A DNA stretch of 64,000 nucleotides, from the IMG/VR virus record IMGVR_UViG_3300042922_001018, one strand, 5' to 3'. The number at the start of each line of letters is the position of its first letter. Position 1 is the stretch's first letter. Below are positions 5,193 through 59,375 of the stretch, piece by piece. This stretch comes from a virus. Its lineage: Duplodnaviria; Heunggongvirae; Uroviricota; Caudoviricetes. Below the pieces are notes generated by a model, which saw nothing but the letters and a program-made list of their open reading frames with translations, did no database searches and had not been told where the DNA came from. Position numbers and translations under genes: made by a program.

Positions 5193-5387
5193 CTACACCC
5201 GGAGGAAGATGCCCTTGCGCGCGAGCCGGACGAGCTTCCGGGCGCGGAGCTGCGCAAGCCAGAGCCACGACGCATAGGTCGTGGCTACCACGGAGCCGTT
5301 GGCGGTGTCGATGAGCTGGATGACGTAGTCGTCGTTGATGTAGCTACCGAACCCGATGGCGGTGGTGTACTGCGGAGAGGTTCCCAT
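5193..5387 (-). CDS. Hypothetical protein
   Basis: TAGAGT-6-ATG. Confidence 0.55.
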   Translation of the reverse strand: MGTSPQYTTAIGFGSYINDDYVIQLIDTANGSVVATTYASWLWLAQLRARKLVRLARKGIFLRV

Positions 5388-36116: not shown

Positions 36117-36557
36117 CTACAGGGCGCCACGGCCGATGGCTCGGTCTAGCGCAGTGAAGATGGAGCGTGTGCGACTAGGATAGCCGGAAACTCGTTCGCC
36201 ACCGTACTTCTCATCGAGAACCACCTCGTATGCGGTGCGCTTCTTCAGGTCGCGACGGATGCCTCGTGCCACCTTCACCGACGGTGTGCTCTCGTAGGAA
36301 CTAACGTAGCCGACGCGCTCACCGTCGAGGTAGACGGGCGTGCGAAGGTAGCCTGAGCCAGGCAAGATTTCTTCTTCCTCGCCGATACGGACATCGGCCG
36401 TCTCCAGCCGCTTGCCGTAGTAGCTCTCCTTCGACTTCGTGACCTTGCGAAGCTTCGGTTTTGGTGCAGCGTTCAGGGTGACTTCCGGCGCGGCCCCGGT
36501 CTTCTCGGAGAACTTGCCGCCCTGGTCTCGTTCTACCTGTGTTTCGTCGAATGCCAT
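36117..36557 (-). CDS. Leader-family basic protein
   Basis: MAFDETQVERDQGGKFSEKTGAAPEVTL. Confidence 0.8.
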   Translation of the reverse strand: MAFDETQVERDQGGKFSEKTGAAPEVTLNAAPKPKLRKVTKSKESYYGKRLETADVRIGEEEEILPGSGYLRTPVYLDGERVGYVSSYESTPSVKVARGIRRDLKKRTAYEVVLDEKYGGERVSGYPSRTRSIFTALDRAIGRGAL

Positions 36558-42759: not shown

Positions 42760-43095
42760 TCAGTCGGCGTCCGCTGCGCGGCGTCGCGCGAGCGCCCCAG
42801 CCTGACGGTCGATGTCCTCAGCAAGTCGCGCGAAGAGGTCGGCAGCGGCCGTGTCGGGGTGCTCCAGCTCGTACAGGGTCACGCGGGTGCCGTCGGCAAG
42901 GAGAATGGTCCCTGTGAGACCGTCGAAGTTCGCTACGGTCGGGGTCACCATACCCCTGTATGTCTCGGGCGCGTCCATCGCCAGCGAGTTGTACACGGCC
43001 TTGTACTTGTCGAACAGCGTGTAGATGTGCGAGGTGAGCGCCTCGTATCCGGAAACGTAGGCGCCTAGGGCGGCGCGCGGCGAAGGAGCAGTCAT
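42760..43095 (-). CDS. Hypothetical protein (loosely similar to previous)
   Basis: TTGACA-17-TAGACT-6-ATG. Confidence 0.7.
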   Translation of the reverse strand: MTAPSPRAALGAYVSGYEALTSHIYTLFDKYKAVYNSLAMDAPETYRGMVTPTVANFDGLTGTILLADGTRVTLYELEHPDTAAADLFARLAEDIDRQAGALARRRAADAD

Positions 43096-43284
43096 CTTCG
43101 AAGTCTACTCTCCCGGCGGAGTGGTGTCAATGGGGTGAGGCTGCCCGCACCGACCACAGCGATGGGGTGTCGAATGCCCTACCAGCTTGTAGCATGCATG
43201 GGTAGTGGCAACGCGGTGACCGGAGCCGTCCGCGCTCAGCTCGTCCCATGTGACGTGGCATCGCCCGTTCATGCTCTGAGTGTA

Positions 43285-43617
43285 TCACCGACCGGCCAGC
43301 GGAAGGCCTGCGAGAAGGCCTGAGACGCCGTGAGCGGGAGTGAACGCTACAGCGGTCACCGCATCGTCGAAATCCGGCTCATGGAACGCAACAGTATCGT
43401 GCTCAGAGTCTCGGAATGTCTCGATGGTCTCGCGCGGAGCAGCGAGGGCGATGACGTAGTTCGAGGTGGAGTTCCAATGACGGGCTGCATCCGCCCGTGT
43501 CAGGATGAACTCGGCGACAGCGTGAGCCACTTGGGCAATCTGCTGTCCCGGTCGAAGGGCGGAATCGACGACAACGTGAAGTCGTGCGTCGCGGAAAGGC
43601 AGCTAGTTCTCAGTCAT
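43285..43617 (-). CDS. PTH2-like peptidyl-tRNA hydrolase with in-frame TAG at codon 5
   Basis: MTEN*LPFRDARLHVVVDSALRPGQQIAQVAHAVAEF...FHEPD...TAVAF; TACGCT-6-ATG. Confidence 0.75.
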
Positions 43618-43629
43618 GAGGATAGCGTA

Positions 43630-43926
43630 TCACACCGCTCCGACATCGACTGCGCGGTGTGCATTCAACTCCCGAGAACGAGCCGCCCACAGGTCAGTGC
43701 TCACATCCGGGACGGGGATGGCGGGAGCTGGCTTCTCTTCGAGAATCACGAGAGCGTCACCGGCACACACGCGCCTGGTGCCGTGCTTGTCTTCGATGGT
43801 GACCTCGCCGCACATCATGTACTCATCGGCGGCGACAACCGTGAACTTTCCCGACTTGGCCCGGAGGAAAGTCACTCTGGCCCCGACCCTCATGCGTGGG
43901 TCCGGCCACACACTCAGTTCTTTCAT
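43630..43926 (-). CDS. Hypothetical protein
   Basis: Coupled ORF. Confidence 0.55.
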   Translation of the reverse strand: MKELSVWPDPRMRVGARVTFLRAKSGKFTVVAADEYMMCGEVTIEDKHGTRRVCAGDALVILEEKPAPAIPVPDVSTDLWAARSRELNAHRAVDVGAV

Positions 43927-44249
43927 GGGACGATGCTCCGAGCGGCACGGCGGGCCAGCTCTCGCAACCGGTCGGGAATCATCCCGAGGCTCTGGTCGTT
44001 CATCACCGCAGCGATGTCCTCGTCAGACAGTGGACTCCATCCGTGGTCGCGCAGCTTCTTGTCGGCCGCAGATGAGATAGCCTTCACGACATCGTCGGCG
44101 ACGCGCCATGAGTACACATCAGGGTACAGCCTCGTTTCCATCGGAATCTTCTCGATGGCTCGCTCGACCACTCGGTCAAGCGGAAGTGCTGGACGACCGT
44201 CGGGGCGCCCCAGACGGAATCCGTTCGCTACGGTCGGCTCAATGTCCAT
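43923..44249 (-). CDS. Hypothetical protein
   Basis: Coupled ORF. Confidence 0.6.
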   Translation of the reverse strand: MDIEPTVANGFRLGRPDGRPALPLDRVVERAIEKIPMETRLYPDVYSWRVADDVVKAISSAADKKLRDHGWSPLSDEDIAAVMNDQSLGMIPDRLRELARRAARSIVP

Positions 44250-44577
44250 GAGGCTCCTCGCTGGGAATCTCTTCCCACGGCCCGTAGGTGACTCGGCGCC
44301 GCATGAGCGTGGCGCGCGGCGTGAAGCCGCCTTTCTTCATGCGGTTGAGCACGTACCGGACAATGCCACGCGCTTCGTCTAGGTCGGCGTATTGGCGCAG
44401 CCGCGGGATGTCGGTCAGGTCGTCCATCGAATCGGGAATCGCTGCGCCGTAATGGTAGTCGGGCGCGGGCGCTTCGTCGATGAGCTGGGGAAGGTCAGGA
44501 ACCTGCACCGGGGCGTGAGCGGCGAGCCGGGCTTCCATCTCCTCACGGAGACAACGCGGCTTCGGGAGGTCAGTCAT
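44239..44577 (-). CDS. Hypothetical protein
   Basis: Overlapping ORF in operon. Confidence 0.6.
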   Translation of the reverse strand: MTDLPKPRCLREEMEARLAAHAPVQVPDLPQLIDEAPAPDYHYGAAIPDSMDDLTDIPRLRQYADLDEARGIVRYVLNRMKKGGFTPRATLMRRRVTYGPWEEIPSEEPHGH

Positions 44578-44887
44578 TGCTCGCAACTTCCTTCTCCTGG
44601 AGTCGGTCCCGTTCCACGCGGATGCCGCGCGCCACGCGCTCGCCTGTGATTTCGCTTCCGCCGATGTAGCTCCGCGCTTCGGAGAGGATACGGTCGTAGC
44701 TCTCGGAGAGCATCTGACGCACCTGGGACTCCGTTACCGGCGGCTCGTCGAGAACGTCTGCCATGCGGATGAGCAGTTCCCGCACCGCGTCCGTGTGGTA
44801 GTGGTCGTCCGCGAGTCCGCGAGCTGCTTCAGCAAGCTGCTTCGGAGTCTTGCCTTCGAACTCGTTCCAGCCGTCGAGTAGTTCCAT
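44570..44887 (-). CDS. Hypothetical protein
   Basis: AAAGGGAG RBS. Confidence 0.65.
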   Translation of the reverse strand: MELLDGWNEFEGKTPKQLAEAARGLADDHYHTDAVRELLIRMADVLDEPPVTESQVRQMLSESYDRILSEARSYIGGSEITGERVARGIRVERDRLQEKEVASND

Positions 44888-45082
44888 CAGCTCCCTTTCG
44901 CGTAGGTGACGGGGACGTGGCCCACCAGCGAAGTGCTGAGCAGACCAGCGATGTCTCCCAGCATGCCGGAGAGATGCGGGTTCTCAGTGCGGCCGACAAG
45001 GTCTTCCGAGAGTGCTCGTGCAACCTCGGTGAGGTCTACGAGCGGTGTAGTACCAACGAGAGCCATGCCATCCCTTTCGTTG

Positions 45083-45154
45083 TGCCCCTGACAGGAATCG
45101 AACCCGTGACGCGAGGATTTAGAGTCCCCCGTTCTGCCATTGAACTACAGAGGC
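45083..45154 (-). tRNA. tRNA with CUA anticodon (amber suppressor type)
   Basis: GCCUCUG UA GUUC AAUGGCA GAAC G GGGGA CUCUAAA UCCUC GCGUC ACGGG UUCGAUU CCUGU CAGGGGC A; full cloverleaf, CCA not encoded. Confidence 0.92.
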
Positions 45155-45184
45155 AAGACCGCCGAAGCGGCTTGTGGTTACAGC

Positions 45185-45607
45185 TTACACCACCTTGCGC
45201 CGACCCAGCAGCTCGTCCGCCTCGAAGTAGAAGCCGAGAGCGTAGAGCGTGGTGCCGTCGAGAGTGCCTTCCACGACCTCGAACTCCGCCGTCACCTCGT
45301 CGTTCTGAGCGACCAGCACATCGCCGAGCGAGATGTCGGTGACGCGGATTGGTTCGTACGACTCCTGCGATGCGTCCACGCCCGTGTCCGCCTTCTTCAG
45401 GACGGTGAGCTTGTCCGGGAACAGGCCGTGGGCGTTCGACGCGTTGATACCGATACCGGTCTCCGGGTCGCTCAGCTCGCCGCGCTCGCGGTAGGACGAG
45501 GGGACTTCCCACTCGACACGGCCGCGGTACTCGGGGTCGGTCTCATCGAACCACTCCAGCAGGACGCGGTCGCGGGGGGAGAAAAGGGTGCCATTCCAGC
45601 GTGCCAT
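45185..45607 (-). CDS. Hypothetical protein
   Basis: Paralog of 46085..46549 (DxVLLEW...DPE..GR..W.VP). Confidence 0.7.
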   Translation of the reverse strand: MARWNGTLFSPRDRVLLEWFDETDPEYRGRVEWEVPSSYRERGELSDPETGIGINASNAHGLFPDKLTVLKKADTGVDASQESYEPIRVTDISLGDVLVAQNDEVTAEFEVVEGTLDGTTLYALGFYFEADELLGRRKVV

Positions 45608-46560: not shown

Positions 46561-47937
46561 TCACTTGTCGAACTCGCAGATGTAGGAGACACGAATCTGC
46601 TCCACGTCCCAGACAACGATTTCGTTGTTGAGAACGCCGCAGGTACCGCCCTTGATGTTGATGCTGTTGAACGGCTTGCCCTTCGCGTCCACGCTGTTGT
46701 GCGCCTTGTTGAGGCTTGCCGAACCAGCCCAACCACCCTGCTGGTACGGGCGGAACTCGTTGCCGAGAACAACCTCGTTGAGGAGCATGAAGCAGTTGTC
46801 GCGCGAGCCGCCGGTCGCTCCGCCCCAGGAACCTGCCGAGTACCGCAGCGACTTGGTGGACTGGTCGGAGAAGTAGATGCCGTCACCGAACATGCGGCCC
46901 GCGATGCGGATGGTGGTTCCACGGACCGGCGGGACGAACAGACCCTTGCGGAGGATGGAGAGCAGGTTACCCGTGAGGGTGCCGTGCCACAGCTCGCGCA
47001 CGTTGCTGAGCTTGTCCTTCGCGTCCTTCCACTTCGCCAGGTGCTCGTCCGAGTCGGTGACGACGTAGACGCGCTTCAGCTTCAGTCCGGCGACATCGCG
47101 GTGGTGACGGTCGTTCTTCGTGTCCTCGAACATCTTCGAGATGCGCTTGAACTCCTTGCCCTTCGGGTCGAGGACATCGAGCGCGTAACGGAAGTCGATG
47201 GTGGGCGTCGAGGTCTGCGCGGCCTTCTGCGCGTCGGCGAGAGCCTTGGCGGTTGCGGTCTTCGCGAGAGCGACGGACGATTCGAGCTGGTCGAGAAGGT
47301 CGCGCTGCTTGTCGATGGTGGTGACCTTCGTGAGGAAGGTGTCGCCCCACCCACGGCGCGCGGGCACCTTCTGGGGGATGTAGGTCAGGTACTCGTCCAG
47401 GTCTTTCTGGCTGACGCCGCTCCCGCTGTCCGTCTGGTTCGCCAGGCGGTTGAGGATGACGCGAGCTTTCTGGATGTTGCCGAGGGAGACCACGCCGAGC
47501 GCGGTACGGACGATACCGTCATCCGAGACGGTGATGAGACCACCGGAGGCTGAGGTGATGGCGTGACGGTTCTCCGCGACGATACGGCGGATGAACGTGT
47601 CGAGTGCGGCGCGAGCGTCGGCCGTGACGTTCGCAGGCATGAGGGAGGCGAGAGCGGCGACCTCGACATCGACACCGTTGGTCCCGTTGCCTCCGGAGAT
47701 GGCCTTCGTGGTCGAAGCCTCGATGTCGGTGCGCTTGTAGCCCTTGCGCTCCTTCTCGCGGATGCAGCGGTCGTACGTGTGGCGACCGCTGCCCTTGTTG
47801 GACACGGTGCCTTCGACGCCGACGCGGCCCCAACGGGCGGTCACAGTGTCGTCATCGTGCAGAGTGACGTGGTAGAACTTGTTGTTGTTCTCCGCGCCGC
47901 TGACGAGAATCAGCATCGTCTCTTCGAGGGTGGCCAT
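46561..47937 (-). CDS. WGR-domain PARP-like ADP-ribosyltransferase
   Basis: NNKFY...WGRVG; YLTYIPQ; LWHGT, GRMFGDGIYF, KSLRY, NNEIVVW (H-Y-E triad). Confidence 0.93.
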   Translation of the reverse strand: MATLEETMLILVSGAENNNKFYHVTLHDDDTVTARWGRVGVEGTVSNKGSGRHTYDRCIREKERKGYKRTDIEASTTKAISGGNGTNGVDVEVAALASLMPANVTADARAALDTFIRRIVAENRHAITSASGGLITVSDDGIVRTALGVVSLGNIQKARVILNRLANQTDSGSGVSQKDLDEYLTYIPQKVPARRGWGDTFLTKVTTIDKQRDLLDQLESSVALAKTATAKALADAQKAAQTSTPTIDFRYALDVLDPKGKEFKRISKMFEDTKNDRHHRDVAGLKLKRVYVVTDSDEHLAKWKDAKDKLSNVRELWHGTLTGNLLSILRKGLFVPPVRGTTIRIAGRMFGDGIYFSDQSTKSLRYSAGSWGGATGGSRDNCFMLLNEVVLGNEFRPYQQGGWAGSASLNKAHNSVDAKGKPFNSINIKGGTCGVLNNEIVVWDVEQIRVSYICEFDK

Positions 47938-49116: not shown

Positions 49117-49332
49117 CTAACGTCGCTTGCGGCGTGTTGTCAAGTGCTGATGCATGATGCCGACTGCGGCAATGAACGTCCACCAGAAATAGACGTAGAG
49201 GAACACGATGATGTACCCGGAACGGTAGTACATGGCGAGAACCATCATGCAGAGCAGCCCGACAGCGCCGAATCGGTAGGCTAGGCGTTCAGGCTTGGAA
49301 ACTCGGTCGCGCCATCTCATCGTGCGGCCCAC
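49117..49332 (-). CDS. Small membrane protein
   Basis: Two TM segments. Confidence 0.55.
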   Translation of the reverse strand: MGRTMRWRDRVSKPERLAYRFGAVGLLCMMVLAMYYRSGYIIVFLYVYFWWTFIAAVGIMHQHLTTRRKRR

Positions 49333-54492: not shown

Positions 54493-55041
54493 TCAACCGC
54501 GCAGCTTCTCCTCTGAAACCGTCTCGATGAGGCCGTCGGCTTCATCTCCGAAGGCGGAGTCCAGGAACTCGATAGAGTCGTCATCTCCCTCGGCCGCGGC
54601 TCGCGCGATGACAGCGAGAGCTTCCTCTGTCGTCTTCGGCGCCTCGCCCGCGGTGTAGATGGAATCCTCTCCCGCGTACAGCATGGTCACGGGTGTGCCA
54701 TCATGCGGGCTGGAGCTAGCGATGGCAGTGACACCCCGCTCTTCGACGAGTCGGGCAAGGCGCGTCTTAGCGTGACCGGTGAGGCGCGGGTCCGTGATGG
54801 GGTTGCGCGAACTCGACGGCTCCAGAGTCAGCAGGTCCGGCACCTGGAAACCGAAGTTCAGTGAAGCCAGGTTGAAGGAACCAGAGAAGTCGTCCGGGAG
54901 GAGACCGGACTCCGGTGCCGACCCGCGCTTCGCGGCGAACTTGCCGTCGCCCTTACGGGGCTGGGCAGTTGCCTGCGCGTATCGGTCAGCCGCGATACGG
55001 TCAAGGTTCTCACGGAGACTCTTGGGGTTCTTGTCGGTCAT
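54493..55041 (-). CDS. Leader-family protein (motif displaced ~20 aa)
   Basis: QPRKGDGKFAAKRGSAPESGL; motif at 55050. Confidence 0.75.
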   Translation of the reverse strand: MTDKNPKSLRENLDRIAADRYAQATAQPRKGDGKFAAKRGSAPESGLLPDDFSGSFNLASLNFGFQVPDLLTLEPSSSRNPITDPRLTGHAKTRLARLVEERGVTAIASSSPHDGTPVTMLYAGEDSIYTAGEAPKTTEEALAVIARAAAEGDDDSIEFLDSAFGDEADGLIETVSEEKLRG

Positions 55042-55079
55042 GCCTTCAGTGTAGGCGGACCGATGAGCTTCCGCAAGTC

Positions 55080-56967: not shown

Positions 56968-57213
56968 TCAGTCTTCGTTACGACGGCCAGTCGCAGAGCG
57001 CCACGCGTTGTCCCACGCGGCTCGCCAGTGACCGAACGAGGATGCCACGATGAACCCGACCGTGAGAAGGCCGAGGACGACGCACGCGATGATTGCTCGC
57101 ACGACAACATCGCTGCTCAGCTCTACGTTGTTGCTTGCGTAGATGAAGACAGTGAGGACAGCAACCAGCAGCGCGCCGGAGATGAATGCCCCTGTGATGG
57201 CAACGCCACGCAT
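56968..57213 (-). CDS. Small membrane protein
   Basis: Two TM segments; coupled. Confidence 0.6.
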   Translation of the reverse strand: MRGVAITGAFISGALLVAVLTVFIYASNNVELSSDVVVRAIIACVVLGLLTVGFIVASSFGHWRAAWDNAWRSATGRRNED

Positions 57214-58283
57214 CAGGCAACCAGCGCTTTCGTGACCTCGCGCGGGTCTGTCGCGAAAAGGCCCGAGTTCAGCAAGCCGTTCAGCTCGACGATGAATGGC
57301 TCCCCCGTGTCGCCGTCCGTGGCGACATCGAGTACGTAGTCCACCAGTCCATGCTGGTCCGCCATCTCCGTGGCCACCTTCGTCGCGAAGTCGAGATAGT
57401 TCACCATCCGACGGACCTGCTCGACGACCTCCGACTTCGCTGCGCGATGCTGCCGCATGAACGGGTCGAATGGTACACCGGGCATCGCGTCAAGCGGGGT
57501 GTGCTCCTCGATGTTCGCAGCTCCCGTGACCGGCTTGCCGCCAACGACGAAGAACCGATACTCGTACTGCACGTTCATGTAGCCCTGAAGAATGAACGCT
57601 TCGGGCAGGCCAAGGAGCTGGAAAGCCCAGTCGCCAATCGAATCGTGTAGGTCTGACGGGACCGGGTTATCGCCCGCAGCGATGTCGAAGACGGTGAGCG
57701 GGAACCTCTTCGACCGGACCGACTTGATAGCGGCGCGCGTCAACCCTGCATCGCGGTATTCGAGGAGGCGTTCCTCGATGGTGACGCCCACGTCTTCGCC
57801 TTCGTACCCTTCGCCGACCGATACGAGGTCGATGCGTCGGCCAGAATGTGCCGTGTACGGCGCCAGGGAGGCGTACTGAGTCGCCATCTCCTCTTGGGGC
57901 AGTCGTACGGCGTTCGCGGGGCTGAAGCGCGACACAGGGCCGTACAGCGCGTAACGCTCGGGGTTCTCGCTACCGAGACGGTACGCCTCCGAGGCGTCGA
58001 AGCTCTTCTTGCCCCAGGACTTCTTCGTCGGGTTCACGATGGTCGCAGGCTTGTTGTCGATGGAGAGGTAAACAGCCTTCGCACCCGAGTTGAGTCCGGC
58101 ATGGAGCCGGTACGCCATCTCCCAGAAGTCCTCCTTGTCGCCTTCGCCGTTGTGAGGCAACGGTTCGACGAGCGTGCGCCAGGTCGCGAGGACTTCGGCG
58201 GCGAGCGGGCTGGACTCTGCTTCGGCCTCGACCGTTGCCGGTTCCGCCTGCCGGAGGATGGATACGAAGAGAGTCTTAGGCAT
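57213..58283 (-). CDS. ATP-grasp domain protein (R2K-like)
   Basis: EYRFFVVGG...YVLDVA...IVELN...SGLFA. Confidence 0.8.
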   Translation of the reverse strand: MPKTLFVSILRQAEPATVEAEAESSPLAAEVLATWRTLVEPLPHNGEGDKEDFWEMAYRLHAGLNSGAKAVYLSIDNKPATIVNPTKKSWGKKSFDASEAYRLGSENPERYALYGPVSRFSPANAVRLPQEEMATQYASLAPYTAHSGRRIDLVSVGEGYEGEDVGVTIEERLLEYRDAGLTRAAIKSVRSKRFPLTVFDIAAGDNPVPSDLHDSIGDWAFQLLGLPEAFILQGYMNVQYEYRFFVVGGKPVTGAANIEEHTPLDAMPGVPFDPFMRQHRAAKSEVVEQVRRMVNYLDFATKVATEMADQHGLVDYVLDVATDGDTGEPFIVELNGLLNSGLFATDPREVTKALVA

Positions 58284-58778: not shown

Positions 58779-59375
58779 CTACTCCATCAGCGAAACGCTG
58801 AGGAACTCCTCGATAGCAGGCACATGGGTCTTATCGAATCCGGTCGGCTTGGTCGGCCGTACCGCCAATGCGGGCACGTGAAAATCGGCCGCGTCGAACA
58901 GCCGAGTCGCCGAGTCATCCACCCAGATGAACGGAAGACTCTCCGCGGCAGTCGCAGCCTTCACGACATCGAGCTTCGCAGCGTCTCGCACATCGTCCAC
59001 GTTCGCGCTTGTCAAGCCGTCAGGCCACGGGTTCCACGGCATGTAGCCGAAGTCGAAGTCAGGACCGAGGAAGTGCTTGAACCGCAGGGAATCGCGCTCC
59101 CAGGTCGTGAGCCACCGCACACGGCCACCGCGCGCCTCCAGGGTCTTGAAGTACGCGATAGCGCCGGGGTAGAAGGTGACCTTCTCCTTGATGCGCCGGG
59201 AGTCCTCCACGCCGCGGTAGAGCGGGTTGTCGTCGAACCGGTCCTCGTACGGGGCATTCTTCGTACGGTTCTTCGGCCTCTGGCATCCTTCGACGTTGAT
59301 GACATCGTCGAAGTCCAGGAACACGTTGAACAGCGGCGCCGTGGTGGGGCCGTATGTGTCGAAGAGCGTGTTCAT
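58779..59375 (-). CDS. HAD-superfamily phosphatase (RNA-repair-associated type)
   Basis: FLDFDDVIN; WLTTW; K; FIWVDD. Confidence 0.85.
   Translation of the reverse strand: MNTLFDTYGPTTAPLFNVFLDFDDVINVEGCQRPKNRTKNAPYEDRFDDNPLYRGVEDSRRIKEKVTFYPGAIAYFKTLEARGGRVRWLTTWERDSLRFKHFLGPDFDFGYMPWNPWPDGLTSANVDDVRDAAKLDVVKAATAAESLPFIWVDDSATRLFDAADFHVPALAVRPTKPTGFDKTHVPAIEEFLSVSLME

What the first reader, a model, noticed from the sequence alone, without database searches (positions are those of the whole stretch)
43285..45154. Peptidyl-tRNA hydrolase-like gene gated by an amber codon, 1.5 kb from an amber suppressor tRNA
Seen: TACGCT-6nt-ATG at 43617 has the same leaderless geometry as neighbouring genes and reads ATG ACT GAG AAC TAG CTG CCT..., in frame with the PTH2-like ORF. 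The first conserved strand (RLHVVVDSALRPGQQIAQVAHA) lies upstream of the ORF-track start at 43530, and no ATG, GTG or TTG occurs between the TAG (43603-43605) and that strand. A complete CUA-anticodon tRNA lies at 45083-45154. Inference: programmed UAG readthrough makes the enzyme depend on the phage tRNA or on low RF1 activity. Without readthrough the gene is a 4-codon minigene, a class known to cause peptidyl-tRNA drop-off, so feedback control is plausible.
Basis: partly seen in the sequence, partly recalled or inferred. Interest (0 to 1): 0.85.

Follow-up and report, generated by a model that had tools for sequence, protein, structure and literature searches.

The report
Amber-gated Pth2-like gene with suppressor tRNA
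A small tRNA-hydrolase-like gene on a giant actinobacterial phage- or plasmid-like element keeps the stop codon UAG as its fifth codon and has its own UAG-reading tRNA 1.5 kb away, a pairing repeated in dozens of distant phage lineages, so the enzyme is probably made only when that tRNA overrides the stop.

Summary
The window's only tRNA has anticodon CUA and lies 1,465 nt upstream on the same strand.

The TAG is not an error. Three independent metagenome relatives (91-95% protein identity, dS about 1, dN/dS 0.03-0.05) keep promoter, in-frame ATG, TAG and a CUA tRNA. The 24 codons between the TAG and the first canonical start differ only synonymously, so they are translated.

Across 66 distinct homologous loci (GC 24-66%), 55 carry an early in-frame stop 1-8 codons after a start. 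Of these, 46 have a suppressor tRNA in the locus, always cognate to the stop: 44 TAG/CUA, one TGA/UCA, one TAA/UUA. The median distance is 269 nt.

Gating stops are never followed by T, unlike ordinary terminal TAGs in the same loci. TAG still ends genes in this window and no other gene is gated, so the code is not reassigned.

Most likely this is suppressor-dependent translation of a Pth2-like hydrolase. Its purpose is inferred and nothing is experimental. I found no paper describing it. This scan has noted the same module many times on other DNA.

The parts
45082..45154 (-). tRNA with anticodon CUA (amber suppressor type). Class I, 5-nt variable loop, G1-C72, A73, CCA not encoded. It is the only tRNA in the window.
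   Evidence: ARAGORN. Rfam RF00005 62.2 bits, full length, all pairs standard. A CUA tRNA sits at the syntenic place in L082-L084.
45175..45187 (-). Putative -10 box TAAGCT (45187-45182), which overlaps the TAA stop of the upstream gene, plus a 6-nt spacer. The predicted transcript start is about 20 nt before the tRNA, with a short GCCGC-UUCG-GCGG hairpin in the leader. This part is inferred only.
   Evidence: Read directly from the sequence. The geometry is the same as the enriched TAnnnT-N6 motif.
43630..45066 (-). Five tightly packed small ORFs of unknown function between the tRNA and the gated gene: 44887-45066, 44570-44887, 44239-44586, 43923-44249 and 43630-43926. All are on the same strand.
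   Evidence: ORF list. No Pfam or PHROG family matches them. They are partly conserved in L082-L084, with a variable set of genes.
43618..43632 (-). Extended -10 promoter TG-A-TACGCT (43632-43624) plus a 6-nt spacer. This puts the transcript start at the A of ATG 43617, giving a leaderless mRNA.
   Evidence: TGnTACGCT-N6-ATG is conserved in L082-L084 while the spacer varies. All 13 high-GC gated loci show TAnnnT 6-7 nt before the mini-ORF start, many with TTGACA at -35.
43606..43617 (-). Mini-ORF: ATG ACT GAG AAC (Met-Thr-Glu-Asn), in frame with the gene.
   Evidence: L083/84 read ATG ACC GAG AAC. L082 reads ATG ACC GCA CAC ACG, one codon longer and still in frame.
43603..43605 (-). In-frame TAG (codon 5), followed by C. 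This is the gating stop.
   Evidence: It is identical in L082-L084 at dS about 1. 55 of 66 homologous junctions have an early stop.
43285..43602 (-). Pth2-fold ORF of 105 codons plus TGA stop (43285-43287). With the mini-ORF and the read-through codon the product is 110 residues.
   Evidence: AF2 model pLDDT 95.2. Foldseek top hits are 3erj, 2zv3, 1q7s, 1wn2 and 1xty. Profile against PDB gives 1wn2 at E 5e-5. phrog_1866 at 5e-7. dN/dS is 0.03-0.05.

Best explanation
The gene at 43285-43617 (minus strand) encodes a 110-codon Pth2-fold protein whose fifth codon is UAG.

Its mRNA is predicted to be leaderless. An extended -10 box (TGATACGCT) sits 6 nt before ATG 43617, so ribosomes load on the 5'-terminal AUG and translate Met-Thr-Glu-Asn before reaching UAG.

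If the element's own tRNA(CUA) (45082-45154) has been transcribed, trimmed, given its CCA end and charged, it inserts an amino acid and the ribosome goes on to make the full protein. Otherwise release factor 1 ends translation after four residues. Production of the protein is thereby tied to the activity of the suppressor tRNA.

Shown by sequence and comparison:
- the anatomy;
- conservation of the stop;
- translation of the codons just after it;
- the cognate stop/anticodon pairing across many lineages;
- the Pth2 fold.

Inferred:
- that the tRNA is expressed and charged (the amino acid is unknown);
- that readthrough rather than re-initiation gives the protein;
- what the protein does.

My best guess for the logic: the hydrolase acts on ester-linked tRNA species that arise from suppression. 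These could be the suppressor's own aminoacyl- or peptidyl-tRNA, or peptidyl-tRNAs released after read-through stalls. Gating would then make its dose follow suppressor activity, as a coupling or negative-feedback device. Ungated homologues also sit next to suppressor tRNAs, which points to a functional partnership beyond mere regulation.
For: 1. Anatomy and promoter geometry.

2. Close relatives. L082 (95% protein identity) and L083/L084 (91%) keep TGnTACGCT-N6-ATG, an in-frame mini-ORF (4 or 5 sense codons), TAG CTG CCT, and a single tRNA, anticodon CUA, 1.1-2.3 kb upstream on the same strand.

3. Purifying selection. dN/dS is 0.03-0.05 at dS 0.74-1.2 between the window, L082 and L083/L084 (L083 vs L084: dS 0.2). 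The 24 codons between the TAG and the first canonical start show only synonymous differences.

4. Wider family, 66 distinct junctions:
- 55 are gated: 53 TAG, 1 TGA, 1 TAA.
- The mini-ORF has 1-8 sense codons and starts with ATG in 52 and GTG in 3.
- 46 of the 55 have a suppressor tRNA in the locus, always cognate to the stop.
- The median distance is 269 nt; 45 of 46 are on the same strand.
- In 11 gated loci the suppressor is the only tRNA within about 20 kb.

5. At 60% identity there are 43 clusters: 32 gated, 11 not, none mixed. Locus GC ranges from 24 to 66%.

6. Initiation signals serve the ATG before the stop. A -10 box lies 6-7 nt upstream in all 13 high-GC loci, and Shine-Dalgarno sequences precede the mini-ORF ATG in L018, L022, L025, L053 and L055.

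7. The base after gating stops is A 41, G 11, C 3, T 0. After terminal TAGs of long ORFs in the same loci it is A 56, T 51, C 47, G 39 (Fisher p = 7e-7 for T, 2e-9 for A).

8. Eight of the 11 ungated homologues still neighbour a suppressor tRNA. No other protein family is conserved around the gene.

9. Fold.
Against: - Nothing is experimental. Expression, charging and identity of the tRNA are unknown, and similarity to other tRNAs gave no isotype.
- The closest database proteins (P0002-4) start with ATG exactly where the window has CTG. In 7 gated junctions an ATG or GTG follows the stop at once, and in one more (L063) at the next codon. In 30 others the codon after the stop is ATT, ATA or ATC. 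Stop-then-restart therefore cannot be ruled out.
- The window lineage has C after the TAG, unlike 52 of the 55 gated junctions.
- TAG ends at least 7 genes of this window. Readthrough would extend them by 51-253 codons, and 5 of them would fuse with the next gene. An efficient suppressor should therefore be costly.
- Nine gated loci show no suppressor tRNA within the DNA held.
- The loci are related to one another, so the counts are not independent events.
- The Lys and Asp that I recall as catalytic in Pth2 are Gln and Glu here.
Confidence: 0.75

Rival explanations
1. Upstream mini-ORF with restart. Ribosomes translate the 4-codon ORF, terminate at UAG and re-initiate at the adjacent codon (CTG here; ATG, GTG or ATT in others). 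The stop is then a uORF-type throttle read by RF1, and the suppressor tRNA is linked for another reason, or it tunes the termination/restart ratio.
For: P0002-4 begin with ATG at the position of the window's CTG. The codon after the stop is a canonical or near-cognate start (ATG, GTG, CTG, ATT, ATA, ATC) in 39 of 55 junctions. In cluster C1 mycobacteriophage records the gene is annotated from the GTG after the TAG.
Against: - Sixteen junctions have GTA, ACA, AAC, AAA, AAT, AGA, AAG, GTT or GGC after the stop.
- The stop type co-varies with the tRNA anticodon (TAA/UUA, TGA/UCA), which a restart model does not predict.
- CTG is a poor start, and no Shine-Dalgarno sequence lies in the 15-18 nt leader of the window or of L082.
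- The absence of T after the stop fits weak termination.
Confidence: 0.12
2. The tRNA(CUA) is not mainly a translational suppressor. It is a substrate, cofactor or decoy of the Pth2-like protein, and the early stop senses release-factor 1 activity or general read-through rather than this tRNA.
For: Eight ungated homologues also sit beside suppressor tRNAs, so the link does not depend on gating. The canonical catalytic residues are changed. Suppressor sequences are very diverse and are swapped even among close relatives, while the anticodon is kept.
Against: The tRNAs have ordinary elongator cloverleaves. The perfect match between stop type and anticodon in 46 of 46 loci is most simply explained by decoding.
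Confidence: 0.08
3. The whole element reads TAG as an amino acid (a recoded genome, as in code 15 phages), and the Pth2-like gene is just one of many genes with internal TAGs.
For: It carries a CUA tRNA. TAG is the rarest stop among my rough gene calls: 6 of 88, against TAA 11 and TGA 71.
Against: - No other ORF in 64 kb needs TAG as sense.
- TAG ends at least 7 well-supported genes, several as part of the next gene's -10 box TAGACT.
- In the homologous loci TAG ends 193 of 1103 long ORFs.
Confidence: 0.03
4. The TAG is a sequencing error or a recent inactivating mutation, so the gene is a pseudogene.
For: The automatic gene call is a truncated 81-residue protein from GTG 43530 (P0001).
Against: The same TAG is present in three independent assemblies. 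dN/dS is 0.03-0.05. The segment before GTG 43530 shows only synonymous changes. Early stops occur in 55 of 66 junctions.
Confidence: 0.02

Closest known systems
Archaeal/eukaryotic peptidyl-tRNA hydrolase 2 (Pth2, Pfam PF01981; PDB 3erj, 2zv3, 1wn2, 1xty, human Bit1 1q7s)
   Same: Same fold and size (TM 0.64-0.70, Foldseek probability 1.0). Shared motifs: the first strand, AQxxHA and a late conserved Thr. PTH2 has been noted in jumbo phages (PMC7824862) and in tRNA arrays of cluster C mycobacteriophages (PMC5966550).
   Different: - The window protein is below the Pfam threshold (15.2 against 23 bits).
- The Gly-Lys of Pth2 is Gly-Gln/Tyr here.
- The Asp of the DAG motif aligns with the Glu of an invariant Glu-Pro-Asp.
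- No canonical Pth2 is known to carry an in-frame stop or to be paired with a suppressor tRNA.
- Activity is untested.
Stop-codon-recoded phages with phage-encoded suppressor tRNAs (TAG read as Gln, 'code 15'; crAss-like and Lak phages). The comparison is recalled from my own knowledge; a Crassvirales review (PMC10136315) appeared in my search hits but I did not read it.
   Same: A mobile element carries its own CUA tRNA, and an in-frame TAG must be decoded to make a protein.
   Different: Here one gene, not a whole class of late genes, holds the TAG. TAG remains an ordinary terminator in the window and in the related loci. The target is a translation-related enzyme next to the tRNA.
prfB (release factor 2) autoregulation through an early in-frame UGA
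   Same: An early in-frame stop in a gene of the translation apparatus makes its output depend on how that stop is decoded.
   Different: - prfB uses a +1 frameshift and its own product reads the stop.
- Here a dedicated tRNA reads it.
- Whether the product feeds back on the tRNA is unknown.
Orphan suppressor tRNAs of standard-code jumbo phages (for example Xanthomonas phage XacN1, PMC5852040; Agrobacterium phage Atu_ph07, PMC6102473)
   Same: Large phages with the standard code carry CUA or UCA tRNAs together with a peptidyl-tRNA hydrolase gene.
   Different: The XacN1 authors read through the terminal amber codons and state that they could not identify target genes. The early stop inside the Pth2-like gene supplies a target that they did not look for.
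Lambda bar minigenes (two- to few-codon ORFs that cause peptidyl-tRNA drop-off). Recalled from my own knowledge.
   Same: Without suppression the 5' end of this mRNA is an AUG, 1-8 codons and a stop, which makes it a minigene.
   Different: No evidence here for toxicity or drop-off. In bar the minigene is the whole unit, whereas here it is in frame with a conserved ORF.

Membership tests
Pth2 (PF01981) peptidyl-tRNA hydrolase family | Pth2 alpha/beta fold | tested here: met
   AF2 pLDDT 95.2. Foldseek hits to 3erj, 2zv3, 1q7s, 1wn2 and 1xty at E 1.5e-5 to 8e-4, TM 0.64-0.70.
Pth2 (PF01981) peptidyl-tRNA hydrolase family | Score above Pfam's gathering threshold | tested here: not met
   The window protein scores 15.2 bits against 23. 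Some relatives pass: L004 35.4, L074 31.4, L016 27.9. A profile of the family hits 1wn2 at E 5e-5.
Pth2 (PF01981) peptidyl-tRNA hydrolase family | Conserved Gly-Lys before AQxxHA and Asp of the DAG motif (catalytic residues as I recall them from work on the Sulfolobus enzyme; not re-read here) | tested here: not met
   Alignments to 1wn2, 2zv3 and 1rzw put Gln/Tyr at the Lys position and the Glu of invariant Glu-Pro-Asp at the Asp position.
Pth2 (PF01981) peptidyl-tRNA hydrolase family | Hydrolysis of peptidyl-tRNA | not testable with these tools
   Needs an enzyme assay.
Amber suppressor tRNA | Complete cloverleaf with anticodon CUA in a 7-nt loop | tested here: met
   ARAGORN. Rfam tRNA 62.2 bits with all pairs standard; the loop reads CUCUAAA.
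Amber suppressor tRNA | Aminoacylated and used by the ribosome at UAG | not testable with these tools
   Isotype by similarity is inconclusive. The short variable loop excludes bacterial Leu, Ser and Tyr types. CCA is not encoded.
Programmed stop-codon readthrough of a single gene | In-frame stop conserved among relatives while neighbouring sites diverge | tested here: met
   (dS about 1). 55 of 66 junctions and 32 of 43 clusters carry it.
Programmed stop-codon readthrough of a single gene | Sequence downstream of the stop evolves as coding sequence in the same frame, with no usable start of its own | tested here: met
   Only synonymous differences occur in the 24 codons before GTG 43530. 44 of 55 gated junctions have no canonical start between the stop and the first strand. 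A CTG start is not excluded.
Programmed stop-codon readthrough of a single gene | Full-length product containing an amino acid at the stop position | not testable with these tools
   Needs mass spectrometry or a reporter.
Genome-wide TAG reassignment (code 15 type phage) | Many genes need TAG as sense, and TAG is not used as a terminator | tested here: not met
   No other such ORF in 64 kb. TAG ends at least 7 genes.
Actinobacterial leaderless gene | -10 hexamer TAnnnT 6-7 nt before the start codon, so that the transcript begins at the start codon | tested here: met
   TGATACGCT-N6-ATG. The motif occurs 39 times against 4.97 expected. It is conserved in L082-L084. No transcript data.

The most novel reading that the evidence does not exclude
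The suppressor tRNA and the Pth2-like protein form a self-contained homeostat carried by many phages and giant mobile elements. The tRNA is needed to translate the hydrolase. The hydrolase in turn strips the amino acid or nascent peptide from that same tRNA, or from tRNAs stranded by readthrough. Stop-codon suppression in the infected cell would then be switched on but held at a set level. This would give the 'orphan' suppressor tRNAs of standard-code phages both a target and a controller.
Probability: 0.2. Interest if true: 0.9.

Novelty: new variant of a known kind. Interest (0 to 1): 0.78.

Why it matters
Large phages with a normal genetic code often carry suppressor tRNAs for which no target gene is known. 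The authors of the XacN1 genome say so explicitly (PMC5852040). A conserved early stop in the neighbouring Pth2-like gene, always cognate to the tRNA, supplies a concrete and easily tested target. It suggests a natural single-gene translational switch built from a tRNA and one stop codon.

Several cultured mycobacteriophages (cluster C1, such as Alice, with ATG-TAG-GTG behind a consensus leaderless promoter) share the design. Genetics and proteomics in Mycobacterium smegmatis could therefore settle it.

It also corrects annotation. The gene is routinely called truncated, or from the codon after the stop.

Finally, it raises the question of how an element tolerates its own suppressor when its TAG-terminated genes would fuse to their neighbours.

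Tried and rejected
- Megablast of the region against isolated phages gave no match.
- No whole genome is held for this window.
The DNA of the 70%-identical proteins P0002-4 and of the 450-kb contig therefore could not be inspected.
- Two scans of one-genome-per-species contigs found no relative. A third attempt failed because the alignment lacked a conserved stretch.
- Guessing the tRNA's amino acid by similarity to 356 other tRNAs from the loci gave scattered weak best hits: Lys 13, Arg 9, Glu 5, Met 5, Trp 4 and His 4 of 54, the rest scattered. I rejected this as evidence.
- An amber initiator tRNA was considered and rejected. The tRNA has a G1-C72 pair and only two of the three G-C pairs in the anticodon stem, and the mini-ORFs start with ATG.
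- A search for other conserved neighbouring proteins found none beyond the Pth2-like gene itself. Pfam on downstream ORFs gave nothing except a weak HD-domain hit in fused forms.
- Papers on Pth2 active-site residues were not held, so that point rests on my memory plus the alignments.
- No RGPP or RAPP arrest-type peptide is visible in the small ORFs between the tRNA and the gene.
Full report
**1. What is there**

On the minus strand the upstream gene ends at TGA 43632-43630. That TGA is the start of TGATACGCT, an extended -10 box. Six bases later comes ATG (43617), then ACT GAG AAC TAG (43605-43603), then CTG CCT TTC CGC GAC and on to TGA 43287-43285.

No ATG, GTG or TTG lies in frame between the TAG and GTG 43530, and the first conserved strand (RLHVVVD) lies before that GTG. 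The window's single tRNA, anticodon CUA, is at 45082-45154 on the same strand, 1,465 nt upstream. It scores 62.2 bits on Rfam's tRNA model with every pair standard. Its CCA end is not encoded.

Five small ORFs without family matches lie between the tRNA and the gene.

**2. The leaderless geometry is real**

- TACRCT-N6-ATG occurs 7 times against 0.27 expected.
- TANNNT-N6-ATG occurs 39 times against 4.97 expected, with at most 11 in 100 shuffles.
- The next gene but one downstream has a textbook TTGACA-17-TAGACT-6-ATG.
- In my rough gene calls, 36 of 88 genes have TAnnnT 5-7 nt before the start.

This is the known actinobacterial arrangement in which the transcript begins at the start codon (established knowledge; no transcript data here). 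For the Pth2-like gene it means the ribosome should load on AUG 43617. Its only way into the ORF is then through the UAG.

**3. The TAG is conserved, not an error or decay**

The one metagenome scan returned three syntenic relatives: L082 (95% protein identity) and L083 and L084 (91%).

- All keep TGnTACGCT, a 6-nt spacer of different sequence, and an in-frame ATG.
- The mini-ORF is ACC GAG AAC in L083/84 and ACC GCA CAC ACG in L082, one codon longer and still in frame.
- All then read TAG CTG CCT TTC.
- Each has exactly one tRNA, anticodon CUA, 1.1-2.3 kb upstream on the same strand.

Between the window, L082 and L083/L084, dS is 0.74-1.2 and dN/dS is 0.03-0.05 (L083 and L084 differ from each other by only dS 0.2). 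In the 24 codons between the TAG and GTG 43530, all differences among the four sequences are synonymous. That segment is therefore translated in this frame. The automatic 81-residue call (P0001) is wrong, and the gene is not a pseudogene.

**4. The same design in distant lineages**

A profile of the family found 80 loci in viral contigs (27-40% identity, many from contigs of 150-460 kb). tblastn against isolated phages found 210 records, nearly all Mycobacterium phages, annotated 'peptidyl tRNA hydrolase'. In phage Alice the gene lies 250 nt before 'tRNA-suppressor (cta)'.

Over 66 distinct junction sequences:

- 55 have an in-frame stop a few codons before the first strand, and an in-frame ATG (52) or GTG (3) 1-8 codons before that stop.
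- 53 of these stops are TAG, one is TGA and one is TAA.
- 46 of the 55 have a suppressor tRNA within the DNA held, and its anticodon is cognate every time: 44 CUA with TAG, UCA with TGA (L016), UUA with TAA (L025, 9 nt away).
- The median distance is 269 nt, 40 of 46 lie within 1.5 kb, and 45 of 46 are on the same strand.
- In 11 gated loci the suppressor is the only tRNA in about 20 kb.
- 44 of the 55 have no canonical start between the stop and the first strand.

At 60% identity there are 43 clusters: 32 gated, 11 not, none mixed. Locus GC spans 24-66%. L031 has a second, internal TAG.

**5. Signals that discriminate readthrough from a start after the stop**

- In all 13 high-GC gated loci a TAnnnT box lies 6-7 nt before the mini-ORF start, often with TTGACA at -35. 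Alice is an example: TTGACA-N18-TACCGT-N6-ATG TAG GTG.
- Where Shine-Dalgarno sequences are visible (L018, L022, L025, L053, L055) they precede the mini-ORF ATG, not the codon after the stop.
- The base after gating stops is A 41, G 11, C 3, T 0. After terminal TAGs of ORFs of at least 120 residues in the same loci it is A 56, T 51, C 47, G 39 (Fisher p = 7e-7 for T, 2e-9 for A).

As I recall from E. coli work on four-base stop signals, U after the stop gives the strongest termination and A or C the weakest. The gating stops would then sit in leaky contexts. This is memory, not tested here.

The caveat is that the codon after the stop is ATT in 25 junctions and a canonical or near-cognate start in 39 of 55. 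The closest database proteins, P0002-4, begin with ATG where the window has CTG. Stop-and-restart therefore stays a live rival. It does not explain why the stop type follows the anticodon.

**6. Not a recoded genome**

A scan for ORFs that are whole only if TAG is sense found nothing but adjacent genes that happen to be in frame. A scan for the ATG, few codons, stop, long ORF design found no gene other than the Pth2-like one; that scan's GC3 filter excluded the Pth2-like gene itself.

Stops in my rough calls are TGA 71, TAA 11 and TAG 6, plus two small TAG-ended genes. In the related loci TAG ends 193 of 1103 long ORFs.

**7. A cost**

Several TAG stops here are the first three bases of the next gene's -10 box (TAGACT-N6-ATG). 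Readthrough would therefore fuse neighbours in frame. The seven TAG-ended genes I checked would be extended by 51-253 codons, five of them into the next gene. Either suppression is weak or brief, or these fusions are tolerated. This argues against a very efficient suppressor and is the main internal tension in the model.

**8. What the protein is**

- The AF2 model (54-sequence alignment) has pLDDT 95.2.
- Foldseek's best 13 PDB hits are archaeal Pth2 chains and human Bit1 (TM 0.64-0.70).
- A family profile hits 1wn2 at E 5e-5.
- The window protein itself is below Pfam's PTH2 threshold (15.2 bits against 23). Some relatives pass.
- Invariant residues across 54 sequences are Q24, H27, W43, E75, P76, D77 and T83.
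- In the alignments to solved Pth2 structures, the Gly-Lys before AQxxHA is Gly-Gln/Tyr, and the Asp of DAG aligns with E75.

It is a Pth2-fold protein with an altered active site. Its substrate is unknown.

Eight of the 11 ungated homologues still lie next to a suppressor tRNA, and no other neighbouring protein family is conserved. The partnership with the tRNA therefore seems functional, not only regulatory. Six loci fuse the domain to a C-terminal part of about 200 residues with a weak HD-domain hit.

**9. The tRNA**

Suppressor sequences are very diverse (54 distinct).

- L083/84 share the window tRNA's acceptor, D and T arms but have another anticodon stem.
- L082 has an unrelated CUA tRNA.
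- The anticodon is what is conserved.
- The isotype could not be inferred.
- The tRNA lacks initiator features.

**10. The element**

The window's 81-residue call occurs on a contig of 450,372 bases. An 872-residue protein has relatives in Rhodococcus and Mycobacterium phages and in jumbo phages. Most large ORFs have no Pfam family; exceptions are a WGR-PARP protein and an R2K ATP-grasp protein.

Earlier notes of this scan regard the genome as a giant actinobacterial plasmid-like element with a tRNA array and its own RNase P RNA about 61 kb before this window. I could not check this, so I leave open whether it is a phage or a plasmid.

**11. Literature**

- The XacN1 paper states that no target of its CUA suppressor tRNAs could be identified.
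- The Atu_ph07 paper lists an opal suppressor and peptidyl-tRNA hydrolases without linking them.
- A jumbo-phage survey notes PTH2 without mentioning stops or suppressors.
- A tRNA-array paper notes the PTH2-like gene in cluster C arrays.
- Four full-text searches aimed at this found no description of a stop-gated Pth2-like gene.

This scan itself has noted the same module many times on other DNA: 264 notes in at least 191 genomes.

**12. Verdict**

Restart after a mini-ORF is the main rival, at about 0.12.

Noticed in passing
window 43105-43107, 49117-49119, 58779-58781, 5193-5195, 36117-36119 (minus strand): TAG stops that are followed in frame by the next gene. Four of them are the first bases of that gene's -10 box (TAGACT-N6-ATG or GTG). 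Amber readthrough would fuse the two proteins, extending them by 56-253 codons. The arrangement at 43107 is kept in L083.
   Followed up: partly
window, whole (39 sites, e.g. 43093-43107, 43270-43284, 55039-55053): TAnnnT-N6-ATG is about eight-fold enriched (39 sites against 4.97 expected). A large share of genes in this element look leaderless, each with its own -10 box, often overlapping the previous gene's stop.
   Followed up: partly
window 46561-47937 (minus strand): A 458-residue protein with a WGR domain and a poly(ADP-ribose) polymerase catalytic domain (Pfam E 8e-25). It lies about 1.4 kb upstream of the suppressor tRNA and is conserved in L082.
   Followed up: no
window 57213-58283 (minus strand): A 356-residue protein with an R2K-clade ATP-grasp domain.
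   Followed up: no
L016, L017, L024, L049, L056, L074 (Pth2-like ORFs of about 300-319 residues): The Pth2-like domain is fused to a C-terminal part of about 200 residues. In L016 this part gives a weak HD-domain hit (E 0.0008-0.002). This may hint at RNA-end chemistry.
   Followed up: partly
L031:10001-10345: This Pth2-like gene has two in-frame TAGs, one at the start and one 38 codons later.
   Followed up: no
L082:2834-2909, L083:1503-1574, L084:864-935 compared with window 45082-45154: Close relatives have swapped the suppressor. L083/84 keep the window tRNA's acceptor, D and T arms with a different anticodon stem (A31-C39 mismatch). L082 has an unrelated CUA tRNA. Only the anticodon is constant.
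   Followed up: partly
L086:427-584, L087/L088:3573-3851: Ungated Pth2-like genes preceded by odd tRNA calls: a four-base anticodon 'aact', and anticodons with A at position 34 (aaa, aat, aac). These may be unusual or mispredicted tRNAs.
   Followed up: no
L009, L022, L041, L047: A phage tmRNA gene lies within a few kb of the Pth2-like gene and suppressor tRNA pair in several loci. This suggests a wider ribosome-rescue toolkit.
   Followed up: no
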